Below are positions 431-50,531 of a DNA stretch of 50,572 nucleotides, piece by piece. The notes below the pieces were generated by a model. That model worked only from the letters and a program-made list of their open reading frames with translations. It had not been told where the DNA came from and made no database searches. The DNA comes from a virus. Taxonomy: Duplodnaviria; Caudoviricetes. Within the stretch, counting starts at the first letter, position 1. Each line of letters begins with the position of its first letter. Location: positions 1-50,572 of the IMG/VR virus record IMGVR_UViG_3300048850_000082. The stretch is one strand, 5' to 3'. Position numbers and translations under genes: made by a program.

Positions 431-523
431 ACGCAGTCAGGCCCCCTCGAAAGGGGGCCTGACATGTGTGGCAGGTACAGGATTCGAACCTGTGTAGGCG
501 TTAGCCGACGGATTTACAGTCCG
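431..523. repeat. Left att junction: displaced tRNA-Tyr 3' half plus terminator
   Basis: Matches 50411-50503 except 2 nt (464-465); 466-523 is identical to 50446-50503. Confidence 0.96.
436..463 (-). terminator. tRNA-Tyr terminator hairpin, host copy
   Basis: 12-bp stem GUCAGGCCCCCU / AGGGGGCCUGAC with UUCG loop on the minus strand. Confidence 0.8.
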
Positions 524-34245: not shown

Positions 34246-34348
34246 ACGCCGCCCTGCTCAACAGTGGCGGCGTGGGGATGCGGACATGAGTCGTCAGCAC
34301 CGGTTCTAGCGGCAAGAGTAGCAGCCGGGAATCACACGCGTGTGATTC
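34246..34348 (-). promoter_or_regulatory. Candidate late promoter with 20-bp palindrome and leader hairpin
   Basis: GAATCACACGCGTGTGATTC (34329-34348); -10 TACTCT (34320-34315); hairpin at 34246-34273. Confidence 0.5.
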
Positions 34349-44463: not shown

Positions 44464-44735
44464 GGCTGGCCGCCCAGGTCTCGCACCTGCTGCGCCAGTT
44501 CGTCCTGGCGGATGAGCGCTTCGGCGAGCTGGTCATCCCGCTCGGCCAGTTGCCGCAGCGCCGTATCGCGCTGCTCGCAGAACATCTCGCAGTCTTCGCG
44601 GGCATCTCCGAGGGCGTCGATCGCCGCGTCGCGCTCGGCCTCGGCATTCTCCGCGCGGGCGACGGCGTCGAGCTGCTCGCGCGCGATGGGTAGACCGACC
44701 TCGAGCGTCTCGGCCGCGGCTGCCGCGGCGGTCAT
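44460..44735 (-). CDS. Coiled-coil hypothetical protein
   Basis: Heptad-rich; ATGA overlaps. Confidence 0.7.
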   Translation of the reverse strand: MTAAAAAAETLEVGLPIAREQLDAVARAENAEAERDAAIDALGDAREDCEMFCEQRDTALRQLAERDDQLAEALIRQDELAQQVRDLGGQP

Positions 44736-45544
44736 ACGAGCACCCCGCCCATATCGGCGAGCAGGCGCTGCAGACCCTTCGGCGTCACGCGCGGCTGCGG
44801 AGGATCAAGCACCAGCTCACCGGTCTTCGGGTGGTAGTGCGTCTGCGGCAGCACCGACATCCATCCGGCGTCGATGGCGCGCTGGCACACCCGGTAGCGG
44901 CCATCGCCGCGCGACCGATAGATCCACGACTTGCCCTCGAGCGTCGCGAACAGTCGACCGCGGCCGGTCTTGATGCCAGCGCGAGTCAGGGCCTGGGCGG
45001 TGTCGCCGACCGAGAGGTCACCGTCGGCGTCGAGCAGACGGTCGGCCATCTCAGCCTTGGGCTTGAGTTCGGCGATCTGCTCGTCCTTCGCGGCGAGCAT
45101 GGCCTGGGCCTCGATCACCGCACGGGCGAACAGCTCGGGGCCTTCGAGCGCGGGTGCCGTGGAGTAGGTGCCGGTGCGGCGGATCGTCGGAATGACTTCG
45201 GTGGTCACCCAGCGGCGGAACGGCTTCGCCCCGTCCGAGTTCGACCGAAACACCGCGTCATACAAACCCGACTCGTTGACGACGGCCATTTCCTGCTCGC
45301 CGCCGGGGGTACGCACTTTCGCGTACCCCTTGTCGGCGTCGTCGAGGCGGCGCGTCATGTCCGACGCCATGCGGTACTCGAGGACGGCGGCAACGTCGGC
45401 GGCAACAAACCACGGCTCCCCGTTGACTAGGACCGTGCGTAGTGCCGCGCCCTGGTAGGTGAACGACCCGGGAACCGGCGGCGCGTCGTAGACGACGCGC
45501 TCGACAGCCTTCGATGCGCGGCCGGGGTCGGGGATGCCGGTCAT
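44732..45544 (-). CDS. Antirepressor (BRO-N plus ANT/KilAC)
   Basis: GEPWFVAADV, VNESGLY, FRRWVT.EV.PTIRRTG.Y, LKPKA, VTPKG. Confidence 0.93.
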   Translation of the reverse strand: MTGIPDPGRASKAVERVVYDAPPVPGSFTYQGAALRTVLVNGEPWFVAADVAAVLEYRMASDMTRRLDDADKGYAKVRTPGGEQEMAVVNESGLYDAVFRSNSDGAKPFRRWVTTEVIPTIRRTGTYSTAPALEGPELFARAVIEAQAMLAAKDEQIAELKPKAEMADRLLDADGDLSVGDTAQALTRAGIKTGRGRLFATLEGKSWIYRSRGDGRYRVCQRAIDAGWMSVLPQTHYHPKTGELVLDPPQPRVTPKGLQRLLADMGGVLV

Positions 45545-45720
45545 GACGCCACCTGCGTATGCGCATCGACGAACCGGACGATCTCGGAGGCGGTCACGCG
45601 GCGGTGCGCGCCGATCTGAACCCAGGCCAACTCGCCGGAGGCGAAGAGACGGTAGAGGCTCGCGCGGGAGATGCGCAGTGAGGCCGCGGCCTCGGGGATG
45701 GAGAGCAGGGTCGTGTTCAT
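45541..45720 (-). CDS. xis: Excisionase-like HTH protein (59 aa), not in the ORF track
   Basis: LLSIPEAAASLRISRASLYRLFASGEL..QIG..RRV; ATGA overlaps. Confidence 0.8.
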   Translation of the reverse strand: MNTTLLSIPEAAASLRISRASLYRLFASGELAWVQIGAHRRVTASEIVRFVDAHTQVAS

Positions 45721-46031
45721 GCCGGCACCTCGTCACCAATGAGGCTCGGGGTCACCCGTGGCCGGTAGGTGGTCGTGATGGAGCCCGGCTCGAGGCCGTA
45801 CGCCATCTCCAGTGCCGTGAGCAGTTCCGCCGACACCCCTCGGTGACCGTTCTCGATCGCACTCAAGGCGCCCTTAGTGAGCTTGTCGCCGGTGATCTCG
45901 TGAACGCGCTCGGTGACGTCGGTCTGCGACTTGTTGAGGGCTAGCCTGAGGGTCTTGAGAGACACGTGGGGCGGAGTTTTCTTCTCCCGCTGCTGGCTGT
46001 ATCGCCGTCTTGCGGCAATATTGCTTTGCAT
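45717..46031 (-). CDS. cro: Cro-like XRE HTH regulator
   Basis: LKTLR...SQ..V..LSAIENGHR; divergent from the repressor. Confidence 0.85.
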   Translation of the reverse strand: MQSNIAARRRYSQQREKKTPPHVSLKTLRLALNKSQTDVTERVHEITGDKLTKGALSAIENGHRGVSAELLTALEMAYGLEPGSITTTYRPRVTPSLIGDEVPA

Positions 46032-46196
46032 GCTGCCACGGTAGCGGCAAACCCCTGGTTCGGCAAGCAATTCTGCGGCAAGTTTGCCGTACAGTGCAGA
46101 AACACTGCGTTGTAAGTCCGTTAGCAGGCGCGTTACAGCCATGTCGTTTGCCGAGTTGCACTATGGTTTGCCGAAAGTTTTTGGCAACCTTGTGCC
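46011..46196. promoter_or_regulatory. Genetic switch: divergent promoters and operators
   Basis: CGGCAA at 46013, 46045, 46061, 46076; TTGCCG at 46084, 46148, 46168; leftward promoter TTGCCG-N17-TACCGT ending 6 nt before the cro ATG. Confidence 0.8.
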
Positions 46197-46919
46197 ATGA
46201 CAGATACGCGGCCGGACCTCGCACGATTTGGTGCGATCGTGAAGGCGCGACGCGAAGAGCTGGGCCTTCGGCAAGATCAACTCAGCGATCGAGGTGGCCC
46301 CTCGACCACCACGCTGACCAAGGTTGAGAATGCGTCCGGCGTACCCGCCGACGTCACCATTCGGAAGCTCGACGTCGCTTTGCGATGGCAGCCAGGGTCA
46401 GCCCGGCGCACGCTCCACGGCGGTGAGCCGGAAGTTGTCCCCGCCAACGTCTCTTATGAAGCGCCCGAGTTCGATGAGCAGTCGACCGCCATCACTCGGA
46501 TGTCTGCCGAGCAAGCGTTCCTCTACCTCGACGACGTCGTCAACCTCCTCGAGTTGCTCTCGGATGAGGACCTGAGCGCGTCGGCGACCGAGGCTGCAGA
46601 CATCGTGCACTCGGGGACAATGGCCCTGGTGCTCGCCGTCGCTGCCGGCGTGCCGGGAGCAAGGGCTGGCCAACTCGCCGCGAATCGTCTCGGCCAGTTG
46701 TCACTTCGCCTCTCTCGCATTCTTTCCGACGAGGACAGGCATGAAGGGAACAGCGCGTCCAGGATCATCGAGCTTCCGTACCGCCTCCGCCCTCGTATGC
46801 AGAGCGACCGCTCGGAAGGTGTGGCCGCGCGTGACACCCCCGAGAAGTCAATGGGCAGGCAGCTTCGCGAGGGCCAGGACGCCGACGCCGAGGCCAGCCA
46901 GGACAACGATGGGGGATAG
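46197..46919 (+). CDS. Immunity repressor (XRE HTH, no recognisable S24 peptidase domain)
   Basis: VKARREELGLRQ..GGPSTTT..KVE..LD.AL.W.PGS; divergent from cro. Confidence 0.88.
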   Translation: MTDTRPDLARFGAIVKARREELGLRQDQLSDRGGPSTTTLTKVENASGVPADVTIRKLDVALRWQPGSARRTLHGGEPEVVPANVSYEAPEFDEQSTAITRMSAEQAFLYLDDVVNLLELLSDEDLSASATEAADIVHSGTMALVLAVAAGVPGARAGQLAANRLGQLSLRLSRILSDEDRHEGNSASRIIELPYRLRPRMQSDRSEGVAARDTPEKSMGRQLREGQDADAEASQDNDGG

Positions 46920-47166
46920 CGAATTCCCCTCGCTGAAGGCGACGAAGCTGAGGAAGGTTCTCGAGAAGAAGTTGGGCTACCGGTTCGAGCCTGGGTCGAA
47001 GAAGAGTGGCGGTAGCCACTGCTACCTGGTGGCGGAAGGCCGCAAGCGCATACGCTGGGCGTTTCACAACGGTGTGAGTGTGCCGCCGCGATCTGTTAAG
47101 TCGGTGCTGGTCGACCAGGCGGGGCTTACAGTTGAGGAAGCCAAGGAGGTGTTGGGCATTGTCTGA
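46909..47166 (+). CDS. hicA: HicA-like toxin (85 aa)
   Basis: P.LK...L...L...GY....GSH......H....P...V..VL....G.....A pattern. Confidence 0.85.
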   Translation: MGDSEFPSLKATKLRKVLEKKLGYRFEPGSKKSGGSHCYLVAEGRKRIRWAFHNGVSVPPRSVKSVLVDQAGLTVEEAKEVLGIV

Positions 47167-47839
47167 TCTACACCTGATCATTACCGAATCGGGTGGCTAC
47201 GGATGGACGTTTGAGTCTCCGCAACTTCCTGAGTTGATCGGCGGACGTGATACCTCCGCCGAAGTGATTGCCGATATCCCAGGCGTGATCGAATGGGCAA
47301 AAGAACCGGACGACGTCTTCGACCGGGTCTTCACTCATGAACAGCACTTGATATCCGATCCTGACGGGCGCGATTTTCTCATCCGATTCCTGTTTAGCGG
47401 CAGCGATGAGGACTACAACGAGCGCCATGAGACCGCCGGGCGGCTGAACTTCGCCGTGCTGAATGGTCTGGTCACCGATGAGGAATACGGTCTGCACGTT
47501 CCAGTTGCCACGACGGGCGAGCGCCTCTACATCTGCGTTGTGGACAGCGACACGCTTGGCTGGATTGAGGACCAACTGCTCGAGCGCGAAGGGTGCTGTG
47601 TACTGGCTCAACACCTCGAGGATGGCGCAGTTGTTCACCTGCCCTACGGACGCACGGGAATGCTTCCGAACGGTATCGACACTGGGGCTCTTGGACTGAG
47701 TCGACATAGCACCTTCAGTGAGATGAGGGAAGCCGTACTTCGGCGAGAAGTTGAATCGCTGCACAGGACCTATTCGGCGCCAGACGCGGTTCGCGGGTTC
47801 GAACACGGTATCGACAATCCGTTAATTACAACAACGTAA
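47159..47839 (+). CDS. HicB-like antitoxin with long unknown C-terminal domain (226 aa)
   Basis: N-terminal IITE.GGYGW..ESPQLP.L..G.DT..E resembles the HicB neutralising domain; TTG start overlaps hicA by 8 nt. Confidence 0.68.
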   Translation: MSDLHLIITESGGYGWTFESPQLPELIGGRDTSAEVIADIPGVIEWAKEPDDVFDRVFTHEQHLISDPDGRDFLIRFLFSGSDEDYNERHETAGRLNFAVLNGLVTDEEYGLHVPVATTGERLYICVVDSDTLGWIEDQLLEREGCCVLAQHLEDGAVVHLPYGRTGMLPNGIDTGALGLSRHSTFSEMREAVLRREVESLHRTYSAPDAVRGFEHGIDNPLITTT

Positions 47840-47859
47840 TTCCTCGTCAGCGAACGATC

Positions 47860-47882
47860 TTGTCGGAGCCCTCCCCTAGCTT
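47860..47882 (+). promoter_or_regulatory. PafBC-dependent (RecA-NDp) DNA-damage promoter
   Basis: Exact TGTCGG-N10-TA-N3-T match: tgtcgg agccctcccc tagctt (47861-47882), 8 nt before the ATG at 47891. Confidence 0.75.
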
Positions 47883-47890
47883 TCGACGGC

Positions 47891-48325
47891 ATGGGGGCAT
47901 ACGACCCGTGGGGGGATCTCAGCCGACGCGCCTATCTCAGCGTGGAATTCATCGATATGCCGACGGGCCGCCGCGGGATCATCGCTGGCGACGTCATCAT
48001 GATCGACCGACTTCAGCTACAGGTTGAGCGCCGGTCGACTGTCGCGCACGAGCTGGTTCACGACGAGCGCCGCGTCTATCCGACCGAACCTGCTCTGCGC
48101 GTCCGCGAAGAGACGCTCGTCGAGCGCACCGCGGCCCGCCGGCTGATCGAGCTGCCCGACCTCGTCGACGCGCTGCGGGCCTGCTCGACCCGATGCGCCG
48201 AAACGCTGGCCGACCATCTGTGGGTCGACCGCCCGATGCTCGAAGCCCGCATGAATTCCCTCGACCCGGTTGAAATCGCCGAACTCGAGCACCACCTGGA
48301 GGACCAATGGCTGTGGATTCCTTGA
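47891..48325 (+). CDS. ImmA/IrrE-family zinc metalloprotease (anti-repressor)
   Basis: RRSTVAHELVH (HExxH), E..VE..AARRLI; located between repressor and integrase. Confidence 0.88.
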   Translation: MGAYDPWGDLSRRAYLSVEFIDMPTGRRGIIAGDVIMIDRLQLQVERRSTVAHELVHDERRVYPTEPALRVREETLVERTAARRLIELPDLVDALRACSTRCAETLADHLWVDRPMLEARMNSLDPVEIAELEHHLEDQWLWIP

Positions 48326-48543
48326 CCGATATCGACACCGCGATGCTTGCGATCGAGCACGAATGGTGGCCGACTGCCGGCCGCAAGGAGGACGCGATCC
48401 GCGACCTTCTCGGGATGACGCCGACGCGGTACTACCAGCGGCTGAACCGCCTCGCCGACAGCCACGCCGCCTTGGCGCACGATCCCGTCACGGTGAACCG
48501 TCTCCGGCGGCTGCGCTCTGGGCGATCATCGACCCATGGCTGA
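48322..48543 (+). CDS. DUF3263-like protein
   Basis: E..WW..AG.KE.AIR...G...TRYYQ.LN.L.D...A...DP..V.RLRR. Confidence 0.82.
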   Translation: MTDIDTAMLAIEHEWWPTAGRKEDAIRDLLGMTPTRYYQRLNRLADSHAALAHDPVTVNRLRRLRSGRSSTHG

Positions 48544-49729
48544 GCAACGTCGGCAGCTGCCGCCGCAGATCAAGCGCGTCGAGTTGGGGCAGCGCGCCGG
48601 CGGGCGCCCGGTGGTGCGGTATCAGCTGACGGTCGACGTCGGTGTCGTCGATGGGAAGCGGAAGCAGTACCGGAAGCGGTTCGCGACGGAGAAGGAAGCT
48701 CGCGAGGCGCTCGACGGGATCCGCGGTGATGTCGCCCGCGGCACCTACGTGCACCCCACCAAGGTGACTCTCGCCCAGGCATGCGAGGACTGGCTCGCCG
48801 CAAAGCACGGACTGAAGGCGTCCACGCTGCACGGGCACCGCGTGAACCTCGCCGCGGCGATCGAGGTGCTCGGCGACGTCGACGTGCAGAAGCTGACGAA
48901 GCGACACCTCGACGACCTCGTGACCGCGCTGCGCGCCGGCGGGATGCCCTCCCCCACCGGGAAGGTCCGGAAGCCGTGGTCGCCGCGATCGGTGAATTAC
49001 ATGCTCGGACTGTTGACCGCGGTGCTGAAGGATCAGATGCGGCAGGGCCACGTGGTGCGCAACGTCGCCGAGCTGGTGGACCGGATCCCGGCCGACGCGA
49101 AGACGGCAGACACGTTCAGCGCGGCCGAGCTGCAGAAGGTGCTCGAGCACATCGACGGCGACAGGTATGCGGTGGCGTGGCAGCTGGCGCTCACCGGCCT
49201 GCGGCGCGGCGAGGTCGCCGGACTCCGGTGGAGTGACGTCGACCTGACCGGGCGGACGATGACGGTCGCGTCGACGCGGCTGCGGTTCGGCGCCCACGTG
49301 GTGGAGGAGACGCCGAAGTCGGCCGCGAGCCGGCGGACGCTGCCGCTACCTGATCACCTCGTCGCGGCGTTCAAGTCGGCCCGCGCGGTGCAGGCCGCTG
49401 ACCGCCTGGCGCTCGGCGAGGCGTACCAGGCGTCGGGGTACGTCGTGGTCGACGAGGCCGGTGAGCCGCTGAGCCCGCACGCGCTGACGTCGCGGTGGTC
49501 GCGGATGCTGAAGGCCGCCGGCGTTCGGCACATCCGCCTGCACGATGCCCGCCACACGTGCGGGACGCTGATGCACCTCGAGAACGTGCCGATCGCGTTG
49601 ATCTCTGCGTGGCTTGGGCACGCGTCGAAGGCGTTCACCATGGCGACCTACGTGCACTCGCAGCCGGACGCACTGGCTGCCGCTGCTATGAGCTTCGGCA
49701 GGATGGTTGATCAACCATCCTCGGGGTGA
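48536..49729 (+). CDS. int: Tyrosine integrase
   Basis: Arm-binding N-terminus; GLRRGE, K, HDARH, LGH...T..TY catalytic residues. Confidence 0.97.
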   Translation: MAEQRRQLPPQIKRVELGQRAGGRPVVRYQLTVDVGVVDGKRKQYRKRFATEKEAREALDGIRGDVARGTYVHPTKVTLAQACEDWLAAKHGLKASTLHGHRVNLAAAIEVLGDVDVQKLTKRHLDDLVTALRAGGMPSPTGKVRKPWSPRSVNYMLGLLTAVLKDQMRQGHVVRNVAELVDRIPADAKTADTFSAAELQKVLEHIDGDRYAVAWQLALTGLRRGEVAGLRWSDVDLTGRTMTVASTRLRFGAHVVEETPKSAASRRTLPLPDHLVAAFKSARAVQAADRLALGEAYQASGYVVVDEAGEPLSPHALTSRWSRMLKAAGVRHIRLHDARHTCGTLMHLENVPIALISAWLGHASKAFTMATYVHSQPDALAAAAMSFGRMVDQPSSG

Positions 49730-50410: not shown

Positions 50411-50503
50411 ACGCAGTCAGGCCCCCTCGAAAGGGGGCCTGACCAGTGTGGCAGGTACAGGATTCGAACCTGTGTAGGCGTTAGCCGACGGATTTACAGT
50501 CCG
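50411..50503. repeat. Right att junction reconstituting tRNA-Tyr
   Basis: Direct repeat of 431-523. Confidence 0.96.
50416..50443 (-). terminator. tRNA terminator hairpin, phage-supplied copy
   Basis: Identical to 436-463. Confidence 0.8.
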
Positions 50504-50531
50504 CTCCCATTGGCCGCTCGGGCAACCTGCC
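50449..50531 (-). tRNA. tyrT: tRNA-Tyr (GTA), intact, CCA not encoded
   Basis: GGCAGGT/ACCTGCC acceptor stem, CTGTAAA anticodon loop, long variable arm, GGTTCGAATCC T arm. Confidence 0.97.

What the first reader, a model, noticed from the sequence alone, without database searches (positions are those of the whole stretch)
46197..49729. Candidate PafBC-wired prophage induction switch: DNA damage, ImmA-type protease, repressor cleavage without RecA or LexA
Seen: the short gap before the HExxH protease holds an exact TGTCGG-N10-TA-N3-T motif (47861-47882), 8 nt before the ATG. The protease, DUF3263-like gene and integrase overlap as one unit. The repressor has no recognisable S24 autopeptidase domain, and I saw no canonical LexA box in the control region. 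Known: this motif is the mycobacterial RecA-independent promoter activated by PafBC, and ImmA/IrrE proteases inactivate XRE repressors by cleavage. Inference: the phage uses the host PafBC regulon to switch on both its anti-repressor and the integrase needed for excision. I am not aware of this circuit being described, but could not check the literature.
Basis: partly seen in the sequence, partly recalled or inferred. Interest (0 to 1): 0.88.

Follow-up and report, generated by a model that had tools for sequence, protein, structure and literature searches.

The report
DNA-damage promoter on prophage anti-repressor operon
A mycobacterial-type prophage has placed its small repressor-cutting-type zinc protease, a NapA-like DNA-binding protein and its integrase behind the promoter type that its hosts use, through the activator PafBC, to switch on DNA repair, which suggests an untested, LexA-independent way for hundreds of related phages to wake up after DNA damage.

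Summary
TGTCGG-N10-TAGCTT sits at 47861-47882, 8 nt before the ATG of a 144-aa HExxH protein (one match in the window, 0.06 expected). The protease, DUF3263 and integrase genes overlap. The repressor has no S24 domain, and no SOS box with 1 mismatch or fewer exists.

45 of 47 loci whose protease is at least 40% identical carry the motif at -28 to -30. These include the cultured phages Sbash, Che9c and CarolAnn.

New here:
- Serine integrases transcribed separately carry their own copy of the promoter.
- A complex model docks a conserved repressor C-terminal motif (V209-D213) into the protease active site, score 0.65 against 0.01 for the best control.
- The DUF3263 protein is a NapA homologue (PDB 9n2n, 54% identity).
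- An AT-rich dyad at 47824-47841 is the element found before host napA genes.

Nothing has been tested at the bench. No paper found links PafBC to prophage induction. This scan reached the same core reading before on other DNA.

Verdict: a new variant of the ImmR/ImmA-type switch.

The parts
431..523 (.). attL-side copy of the attachment repeat (includes a partial 3' copy of tRNA-Tyr)
   Evidence: Exact repeats of 33 and 58 nt shared with 50411-50503.
44732..45535 (-). Bro-N/KilAC antirepressor-family gene in the leftward (lytic-side) operon
   Evidence: Pfam ANT E 2.3e-22 and Bro-N E 3e-21.
45541..45720 (-). Excisionase-type HTH_17 gene (candidate recombination directionality factor) in the leftward operon
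   Evidence: Pfam HTH_17 E 9.9e-12.
45717..46142 (-). Cro-like XRE HTH gene, divergent from the repressor
   Evidence: Pfam HTH_3; phrog_6463 E 2e-35.
46197..46919 (+). Immunity-repressor candidate: N-terminal XRE HTH, no S24 domain, and a conserved C-terminal motif V209-A210-A211-R212-D213
   Evidence: Pfam HTH_3/HTH_31 only; phrog_6288 E 3e-25. Its HTH region aligns with Sbash gp43, 28% identity overall. Sbash gp43 confers immunity (PMC6426596, passages). The C-terminal motif is the only conserved block in the C-terminal half. Residues 206-221 form the modelled interface with the protease.
46909..47839 (+). Two cargo genes between repressor and protease: HicA-like (46909-47166) and a 226-aa unknown (47159-47839)
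   Evidence: Pfam HicA_toxin E 1.4e-4, below the cut-off. No family found for the second gene. CarolAnn holds its defence genes 43/44 in the same slot (PMC6426606, passages).
47824..47841 (.). AT-rich dyad AATTACA-N4-cGTAATT at about -67 to -50 of the promoter; inferred NapA-family operator
   Evidence: One mismatch to AATTACA-N4-TGTAATT. The 69 loci hold 72 hits against 0.5 expected. It co-occurs with a downstream DUF3263 gene: 35 loci with both, 23 with neither, 2 and 1 discordant. The same dyad precedes chromosomal napA in 4 of 5 and in 20 of 29 genomes.
47861..47866 (+). PafBC-type -26 element TGTCGG
   Evidence: About 2 bits of information per position across 35 non-redundant relatives. 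Consensus taken from PMC8635444 (passages).
47877..47882 (+). -10 hexamer TAGCTT, 10 nt after the -26 element and 8 nt before the ATG (leaderless geometry)
   Evidence: spacer 10 nt in 35 of 36, gap 7-8 nt in 35 of 36, and no Shine-Dalgarno-like tetramer in 0 of 36.
47891..48325 (+). ImmA/IrrE-like (COG2856/M78-fold) zinc metalloprotease, 144 aa
   Evidence: phrog_87 E 1.2e-15. H53, E54, H57 and E74 are invariant in 26 homologues. AF2 model pLDDT 91.5. Best Foldseek hits are PprI/IrrE 8sln, 8slm and 3dte, prob 1.00, TMq 0.49-0.55.
48307..48543 (+). NapA-like DUF3263 DNA-binding protein, overlapping the protease gene by 19 nt
   Evidence: Pfam DUF3263 106.6 bits. Profile hit to PDB 9n2n/9n2g, E 3e-28. 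Foldseek to Mtb NapA, prob 1.00, 54% identity.
48536..49729 (+). Tyrosine integrase, overlapping DUF3263 by 8 nt
   Evidence: Pfam Phage_integrase E 2.2e-22 and Arm-DNA-bind_4; phrog_1 E 1.9e-70.
50411..50531 (-). attR-side repeat and the intact tRNA-Tyr gene (50448-50531)
   Evidence: ARAGORN; repeat with 431-523.

Best explanation
This is the lysogeny switch of an integrated, probably active, roughly 50-kb prophage at tRNA-Tyr of a Mycobacterium-like host. The repressor keeps the leftward lytic operon off. Downstream, a promoter of the host's PafBC class (a -26 element TGTCGG, a 10-nt spacer, a -10 TAGCTT, no -35) starts a leaderless mRNA at or next to the ATG of a small ImmA/IrrE-fold zinc protease. 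That mRNA also encodes a NapA-like DNA-binding protein and the integrase. After DNA damage, ssDNA-activated host PafBC would let RNA polymerase fire this promoter. The protease would then bind the repressor's conserved C-terminal motif (around A210-R212) and cut it, derepressing the lytic operon, which carries the excisionase. The integrase made from the same message would then excise the prophage. An AT-rich dyad upstream of the promoter, usually repeated in the repressor/cro intergenic region of relatives, is most likely an operator for NapA-family proteins. Through it the phage's NapA-like protein, or host NapA, would tune the promoter and perhaps the switch. Shown here: the sequence features, their conservation and fixed geometry, the folds, and the modelled interface. 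Inferred: PafBC dependence, cleavage, the role of the dyad, and independence from RecA/LexA.
For: - Exact motif, unique in the window, equal to the ChIP-derived consensus tGTCgg(N10)tA(N3)T, whose GTC is read by PafB (PMC8635444, passages).
- Conservation: 45 of 47 loci with a protease at least 40% identical have it at -28 to -30. They span Mycobacterium, Gordonia, Williamsia, Tsukamurella and Nocardioides genomes, IMG/VR contigs, and phages Sbash, Che9c and CarolAnn.
- Across 35 non-redundant sequences, information content peaks only at TGTCGG, at TA...T and at the dyad.
- Of 44 strict motifs in 912,312 nt of 70 sequences (both strands), 32 are this promoter and 6 precede serine integrases.
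- Leaderless geometry with no Shine-Dalgarno-like sequence in 0 of 36.
- Positive control: five genomes carrying related prophages each have exactly one strict motif upstream of recA and a tandem WYL gene pair like pafBC.
- Convergent wiring: serine integrases on the other strand have the motif 6-7 nt before their start. It is present in 10 of the 12 serine-integrase loci that have upstream DNA.
- The protease has an IrrE/PprI fold and an invariant HExxH plus Glu.
- Complex model: score 0.65 against 0.01 for the best of 3 controls. That mark was reached by 58 of 80 solved complexes and 2 of 110 mismatched pairs. The runs agree in at least 74% of contacts, and the partner's pLDDT is at least 61. 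H53, E54, H57 and E74 face repressor residues 206-221.
- The repressor lacks S24, and no SOS box with 1 mismatch or fewer exists.
Against: - No experiment and no RNA data exist for this element. The window's own host is unknown (the record is a virus contig), so PafBC in the host is inferred from relatives.
- In Sbash lysogens genes 40-43, including the IrrE-like gene, are transcribed without induction (PMC6426596, passage). The protease message is therefore not strictly off. This can be reconciled only by inference: an internal ATG without a Shine-Dalgarno sequence may be poorly translated on read-through mRNA.
- Known relatives (ImmA, IrrE/PprI, CapP) are regulated at the protein level, which may apply here too.
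- Pfam M78 is below threshold.
- The repressor alignment given to the complex model had only 6 rows, and the tool states that a pass supports binding but does not show it.
- Tsukamurella copies have TACAAC or TAGAAC instead of TAnnnT.
- Among 23 distant homologues (<40% identity, mostly Acidimicrobiales), only 7 have even a relaxed form of the motif.
- A 2-mismatch SOS-like box lies at 47799-47814.
- The window's own repressor/cro region has only 4-mismatch copies of the dyad.
Confidence: 0.6

Rival explanations
1. The protease is made constitutively by read-through from the repressor promoter, and its activity is switched at the protein level by ssDNA, RecA or another signal, as in ImmA, IrrE/PprI and CapP. 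The PafBC-type promoter only boosts the operon or mainly serves the integrase.
For: Sbash genes 40-43 are expressed in uninduced lysogens (PMC6426596, passage). The best structural match, PprI, was solved bound to ssDNA (8sln title). The promoter also occurs on integrase genes alone.
Against: The 144-aa protein has only the protease core and lacks the extra C-terminal domains of the 240-300-residue IrrE/PprI chains. The promoter is kept at fixed leaderless spacing in 45 of 47 loci, with no Shine-Dalgarno-like sequence for translation from a longer mRNA.
Confidence: 0.2
2. The promoter is PafBC-dependent, but the operon does not cause induction. It would be a damage-induced accessory module, for example integrase plus a NapA-like architectural protein for excision or re-integration, with a protease that has another substrate, while the repressor is inactivated some other way.
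For: The conserved core is protease plus DUF3263, with the integrase variable in type and position. Cargo genes separate the repressor from the protease here and in CarolAnn.
Against: The complex model places the repressor's only conserved C-terminal motif in the active-site cleft, with controls at 0.00-0.01. That motif is kept in repressors that are otherwise 26-36% identical. No S24 domain or SOS box offers another damage route.
Confidence: 0.12
3. The conserved TGTCGG-N10-TAnnnT is read by RNA polymerase with some other factor (another WYL regulator or a phage protein) or with none, and has nothing to do with PafBC.
For: Other WYL activators also act at a -26 region, for example SiwR (PMC10693628, passages). 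No binding data exist for this promoter.
Against: SiwR uses a 19-bp palindrome with a GGA triplet, not GTC (PMC10693628, passages). The same pattern picks out recA in 5 of 5 genomes that carry related prophages. No WYL gene is present in the phage record.
Confidence: 0.06

Closest known systems
ImmR/ImmA of Bacillus subtilis ICEBs1 and phi105-type phages (recalled from my own knowledge; no paper on it was read here)
   Same: An XRE-family repressor without a self-cleavage domain, a small HExxH anti-repressor protease and an integrase on one strand, with DNA damage as the presumed trigger.
   Different: ImmA is co-expressed with ImmR and activated at the protein level (recalled). Here the protease has its own host-activator-type, leaderless promoter, a NapA-like gene is coupled to it, and cargo genes separate it from the repressor.
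PprI (IrrE)/DdrO of Deinococcus
   Same: It is the best structural match for the protease (8sln, 8slm, 3dte). The substrate is an XRE repressor, and the modelled contact lies near the repressor's C-terminus, as I recall for DdrO. The system gives a LexA-independent damage response (PMC12392091, passages).
   Different: PprI is a chromosomal global regulator of about 290 residues (chain lengths) that itself binds ssDNA (8sln title). This protein has 144 residues, and the ssDNA sensing would be delegated to host PafBC at the level of transcription.
PafBC-dependent (RecA-NDp) promoters of mycobacterial DNA-repair genes, e.g. recA P1
   Same: Identical bipartite motif and spacing (PMC8635444, passages). 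The same pattern is found once upstream of recA in 5 of 5 related host genomes.
   Different: It sits on a prophage and drives lysogeny-switch genes. It also has an upstream NapA-type dyad.
REP13E12 family genes of M. tuberculosis (Rv1128c, Rv1148c, Rv1945, Rv3466)
   Same: Mobile-element-related genes with phage attachment sites that are damage-inducible and carry RecA-NDp (PMC3381160, passages). This is a precedent for mobile DNA in this regulon.
   Different: No ImmA-type protease or repressor logic is described in those passages. Most family members are LexA-controlled.
M. tuberculosis NapA (PDB 9n2g, 9n2n)
   Same: The DUF3263 protein is 54% identical over the matched region. NapA was solved on AT-rich DNA (entry title).
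   Different: The phage copy scores 86.4 bits against NCBIfam's 160-bit cut-off for the NapA equivalog, so it is a paralogue. It is translationally coupled to a protease.

Membership tests
PafBC-dependent (RecA-NDp) promoter | -26 element tGTCgg with a conserved GTC | tested here: met
   TGTCGG at 47861-47866. TGTC[AG][GT] in 36 of 36 non-redundant relatives.
PafBC-dependent (RecA-NDp) promoter | 10-nt spacer to a tAnnnT -10 hexamer, with no -35 consensus | tested here: met
   The spacer is 10 nt here and in 35 of 36 relatives. By inspection, the hexamers 17-18 nt upstream of the -10 (around 47853-47860, gaacgatc) do not resemble TTGACA.
PafBC-dependent (RecA-NDp) promoter | The host encodes PafBC | tested here: inconclusive
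   The window's host is unknown. Five of 5 genomes with related prophages have a tandem WYL gene pair.
PafBC-dependent (RecA-NDp) promoter | Damage-induced, PafBC-dependent transcription | not testable with these tools
   No RNA holder was listed; a bench test is needed.
ImmA/IrrE (COG2856, Peptidase_M78) anti-repressor proteases | HExxH plus a downstream Glu | tested here: met
   H53, E54, H57 and E74 are invariant in 26 sequences.
ImmA/IrrE (COG2856, Peptidase_M78) anti-repressor proteases | Match to the family profile | tested here: inconclusive
   Pfam M78 E 0.045, 14 bits against a 22-bit cut-off. phrog_87 E 1.2e-15. IrrE is the best PDB sequence hit, E 0.03.
ImmA/IrrE (COG2856, Peptidase_M78) anti-repressor proteases | The fold of the protease domain | tested here: met
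   Foldseek: PprI/IrrE prob 1.00, TMq 0.49-0.55, on a model with pLDDT 91.5.
ImmA/IrrE (COG2856, Peptidase_M78) anti-repressor proteases | Site-specific cleavage of a cognate XRE repressor | not testable with these tools
   Only a model is available: score 0.65 against 0.01 for the best control.
LexA/CI-type self-cleaving repressors | C-terminal Peptidase_S24 domain | tested here: not met
   No S24 hit in the 240-aa repressor.
NapA / DUF3263 | Match to PF11662 and to the solved NapA structure | tested here: met
   106.6 bits against a 22.3-bit cut-off. PDB 9n2n/9n2g E 3e-28. 54% identity.
NapA / DUF3263 | Equivalog of chromosomal NapA (NCBIfam NF053843) | tested here: not met
   86.4 bits against a 160-bit cut-off. 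Host genomes hold a separate, higher-scoring chromosomal copy.

The most novel reading that the evidence does not exclude
The switch has three layers that together form a damage-gated commitment device. First, host PafBC turns on a leaderless message, and the protease is translated only from that message because it has no Shine-Dalgarno sequence. Second, the protease removes the repressor through a C-terminal recognition motif. Third, the co-translated NapA paralogue binds a NapA-type operator, borrowed from the host's own napA promoter, at the protease promoter and at the repressor/cro region. There it displaces host NapA or blocks repressor resynthesis. Integrases of either family are recruited to the same signal by operon fusion or by their own copy of the promoter.
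Probability: 0.25. Interest if true: 0.85.

Novelty: new variant of a known kind. Interest (0 to 1): 0.72.

Why it matters
How temperate phages of Mycobacterium, Gordonia and their relatives sense DNA damage is not explained by the classical RecA/LexA/CI scheme. Their repressors lack self-cleavage domains, and most damage-induced genes in their hosts are controlled by PafBC. The wiring found here would give a concrete, testable induction pathway for a family present in at least 253 sequenced phage records and in many prophages. It can be tested directly in the non-pathogenic laboratory hosts in which Sbash, Che9c and CarolAnn are propagated. It would also be a case of a phage delegating damage sensing to a host transcription activator and not to RecA. 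It would assign a first phage-linked role and a candidate operator to the NapA/DUF3263 family.

Tried and rejected
RNA evidence: the look-up of sequencing runs listed no RNA holder. The only holder is a DNA run that may be the source of the window.

Own-genome searches: the window is a stand-alone virus record, so no host gene could be sought in it. A WYL search of it found nothing.

Literature: 10 searches were run. None returned a paper that links PafBC or RecA-NDp to prophage induction, ImmA/IrrE-like phage proteases or phage integrases. The 'irre' term matched words such as 'irrelevant' and 'irrespective'. The DUF3263 search gave one unrelated cyanophage paper. Subscription journals are not covered. 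Supplements were closed, so the published PafBC regulon tables could not be checked for mobile-element genes.

Rejected, dyad as the immunity repressor's operator: the same dyad precedes chromosomal napA genes and follows DUF3263 rather than the protease. Nocardioides locus L020 has the promoter but neither DUF3263 nor the dyad. This rejection is not absolute.

Rejected, motif as a generic feature of the phage's promoters: there is only one copy in 50 kb.

Rejected, LexA control: no SOS box with 1 mismatch or fewer.

PADLOC found nothing for the three unknown cargo genes.

Not used: the search for homologous proteins, the search of protein representatives, the protein atlas, and the RNA-model tools.

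Rows dropped before counts:
- One search removed sequences more than 85% identical (44 to 35).
- One search used those 35 plus Sbash.
- One search left out L132, which comes from the unpublished genome G012.
- One search left out 7 IMG/VR duplicates of genome loci (L045, L050, L055, L057, L059, L060, L061), the truncated L019, and loci with under 120 nt of upstream DNA.

Full report
**What is in the window.** The window is an IMG/VR virus record with no host genome attached. A repeat at 431-523 and 50411-50503 includes the 3' part of tRNA-Tyr (50448-50531, minus strand). It marks the two ends of an integrated prophage of about 50 kb.

The right-hand 5 kb is a lysogeny module:
- Leftward: a Bro-N/KilAC antirepressor-family gene, an HTH_17 excisionase-type gene and a Cro-like XRE gene.
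- Rightward: a 240-aa XRE repressor (46197-46919), a weak HicA-like gene, a 226-aa unknown, a 51-nt gap, a 144-aa HExxH protein (47891-48325), a DUF3263 gene (48307-48543) and a tyrosine integrase (48536-49729). The last three overlap.

**The observation.** TGTCGGagccctccccTAgctT lies at 47861-47882, 8 nt before the ATG. It is the only match in the window, against 0.06 expected. It equals the consensus tGTCgg(N10)tA(N3)T derived from PafBC ChIP-seq. In that consensus the 3' part is the SigA -10, and PafB reads the GTC of the -26 element (PMC8635444, passages). The repressor has no S24 domain. No SOS box with 1 mismatch or fewer exists in the window. One 2-mismatch site sits at 47799-47814 inside the non-conserved upstream gene (consensus checked in PMC3381160, passages).

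Homologues of the protease were collected from three sources:
- species-representative genomes, 36 loci;
- IMG/VR, 30 loci;
- three cultured phages: Sbash, CarolAnn and Che9c.

Of the 47 sequences with a protease at least 40% identical, the window included, 45 have TGTC[AG][GT]-N9-10-TAnnn[TC] at -28 to -30 from the start. The two exceptions are L019, a C-terminal remnant, and L062.

After removing near-duplicates, 35 upstream regions remain. Their information content peaks only at TGTCGG, at TA...T and at an upstream dyad, while the spacers differ. In those 35 plus Sbash:
- the spacer is 10 nt in 35 of 36;
- the -10-to-ATG gap is 7-8 nt in 35 of 36;
- the start codon is ATG in 36 of 36;
- a Shine-Dalgarno-like tetramer is present in 0 of 36.

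The strict pattern occurs 44 times in 912,312 nt of these 70 sequences, counting both strands. Of these, 32 are this promoter, 6 precede serine integrases and 6 are other sites.

Two deviations should be stated. Tsukamurella copies end the -10 in C. Among the 23 distant homologues below 40% identity, mostly Acidimicrobiales, only 7 have even a relaxed form.

**Positive control in hosts.** Five genomes that carry related prophages were searched (G001-G005: Mycolicibacterium, Mycobacterium, Gordonia, Tsukamurella, Nocardioides). All 5 have two WYL-domain genes about 1 kb apart on one strand, the arrangement expected of pafBC. Each of the 5 recA loci, 3.8 kb scanned on both strands, holds exactly one strict motif, upstream of recA on the coding strand.

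**Integrase wiring is convergent.** In CarolAnn-like Gordonia phages and in a Williamsia prophage the integrase is a large serine recombinase on the opposite strand. It carries its own TGTC[AG]G-N10-TAnnnT 6-7 nt before its start codon.

Fourteen serine-integrase loci were collected:
- 2 have no upstream DNA;
- 10 of the other 12 have the motif at -28/-29, including two that are only 46-49% identical and have unrelated spacers;
- L075 has a TGTCTG variant;
- L083 (24% identity) has none.

Two unrelated integrase families are thus tied to the same promoter type, one by operon fusion and the other by a private copy.

**The protease.**
- Pfam M78 is below threshold (E 0.045), but phrog_87 matches at 1.2e-15.
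- In 26 homologues H53, E54, H57 and E74 are invariant.
- IrrE is the best PDB sequence hit, though weak (E 0.03).
- An AF2 model (pLDDT 91.5) matches PprI/IrrE best (prob 1.00, TMq 0.49-0.55). Next comes an M. tuberculosis regulator, 6cyy.

**Protease and repressor.** The repressor's HTH region aligns with Sbash gp43, which confers immunity (PMC6426596, passages). The C-terminal halves of related repressors are very divergent except for one block, SDYDLAARD...GR..R.EQD, which reads EGVAARD at residues 207-213 here.

A complex model was run with controls:
- It scored 0.61, 0.65 and 0.65, against 0.01 for the best of 3 controls.
- That mark was reached by 58 of 80 solved complexes and by 2 of 110 mismatched pairs.
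- The runs agree in at least 74% of contacts, and the partner's pLDDT is at least 61.
- Repressor residues 206-221 lie along protease strand 25-33 and against H53, E54, H57 and E74.

This supports binding but does not show it. The repressor alignment had only 6 rows.

**The DUF3263 partner and the dyad.** DUF3263 follows the protease in all of L001-L019. Its profile hits PDB 9n2g/9n2n at E 3e-28. Foldseek names these entries M. tuberculosis NapA, apo and bound to a 20-mer AT-rich DNA, with 54% identity. Against NCBIfam's NapA equivalog it scores 86.4 bits with a cut-off of 160. Host genomes hold a separate, higher-scoring chromosomal copy. The phage protein is therefore a paralogue.

About 20 nt upstream of the -26 element lies an AT-rich dyad, AATTACA-N4-TGTAATT (47824-47841, 1 mismatch). 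The evidence on it is as follows:
- With up to 3 mismatches it occurs 72 times in the 69 loci, against 0.5 expected.
- It co-occurs with DUF3263: 35 loci have both, 23 have neither, and 2 and 1 are discordant. Relatedness confounds this count.
- Many loci have a second copy, always on the upstream side.
- In the 5 cases where both genes were located (Sbash, CarolAnn, L001, L002, L014), that second copy lies between the repressor and the Cro-like gene.
- The same dyad lies just upstream of chromosomal napA in 4 of 5 genomes. It does so in 20 of 29 sampled genomes of the order, where it is the only copy in each 3.3-kb locus.
- It is enriched in host genomes, 5-11 sites against 0-2 for the control pattern, for example before ripA-like NlpC/P60 genes.

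I infer that it is a NapA-family operator. In the window itself the repressor/cro region has only 4-mismatch copies. A 2-mismatch copy lies far away at 34330-34347.

**Mechanism proposed.**
1. DNA damage produces ssDNA, which activates host PafBC.
2. PafBC fires the promoter and starts a leaderless mRNA.
3. The message yields the protease, the NapA-like protein and the integrase.
4. The protease cuts the repressor near A210-R212.
5. The leftward operon, including the excisionase-type gene, is derepressed.
6. The prophage excises and grows lytically.

The absence of a Shine-Dalgarno sequence suggests that read-through transcripts from the repressor promoter give little protease. This would reconcile the lysogenic transcription of Sbash genes 40-43 (PMC6426596, passage). 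All of this is inference.

**Comparison with what is known, and novelty.** The module works like ImmR/ImmA of ICEBs1 (recalled) and like PprI/DdrO. The difference is that the trigger would be a host activator acting on the protease's promoter. PafBC-class promoters on mobile-element-related genes have a precedent in the REP13E12 family (PMC3381160, passages).

The ten library searches found no paper that connects PafBC or RecA-NDp with prophage induction or phage ImmA-like proteases. The Sbash and CarolAnn papers mention the gene only as 'IrrE-like' or not at all.

Earlier notes of this scan reached the same core reading on other genomes. None found by word search mention the serine-integrase promoters or the dyad.

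**Verdict.** It is a new variant of a known kind of switch and remains untested at the bench.

Noticed in passing
window 46909-47839: A HicA-like gene (Pfam E 1.4e-4, below the cut-off) and an overlapping 226-aa gene with no family hit sit between the repressor and the protease. CarolAnn keeps its RexAB-like defence genes 43/44 in the same slot, co-transcribed with the repressor. This is probably lysogen-expressed cargo.
   Followed up: partly
window 34330-34347: A second NapA-type dyad, AATCACACGCGTGTGATT, matches the form seen before host napA genes. It lies in a roughly 430-nt stretch between two leftward ORFs, far from the switch. The neighbouring genes were not identified.
   Followed up: no
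L102, L105, L107 (host genomes G001, G002, G004): The same dyad lies in the intergenic region between an Rv1476-family membrane protein gene and a ripA-like NlpC/P60 gene, in Mycobacterium-type and Tsukamurella genomes. It also lies next to a GNAT acetyltransferase gene (L103, L104). These may be members of a host NapA regulon.
   Followed up: partly
L017:3435-3456 and L060:1935-1956: A further strict PafBC-type motif lies 30 nt upstream of a 142-aa ORF, about 0.5 kb upstream of the protease promoter in a Tsukamurella prophage. The ORF's family was not determined.
   Followed up: no
L025, L029, L032, L033, L035, L062, L063, L069 (upstream of distant protease homologues): Many Acidimicrobiales-type homologues do not have TGTCGG. 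They share a CGCGCACCCC-like element about 20-30 nt before the start, possibly the -26-type element of another regulator.
   Followed up: no
window 47799-47814: TCGAACacggTATCGA is a 2-mismatch match to the mycobacterial SOS box, about 90 nt upstream of the protease start, inside the non-conserved cargo gene. Nine such 2-mismatch hits occur in the window, so it is probably chance.
   Followed up: partly
L038:5025-5034 (CarolAnn integrase): The RefSeq start of the CarolAnn serine integrase (a GTG) overlaps the -10 hexamer of the motif. The leaderless model predicts that the ATG three codons downstream is the real start.
   Followed up: partly
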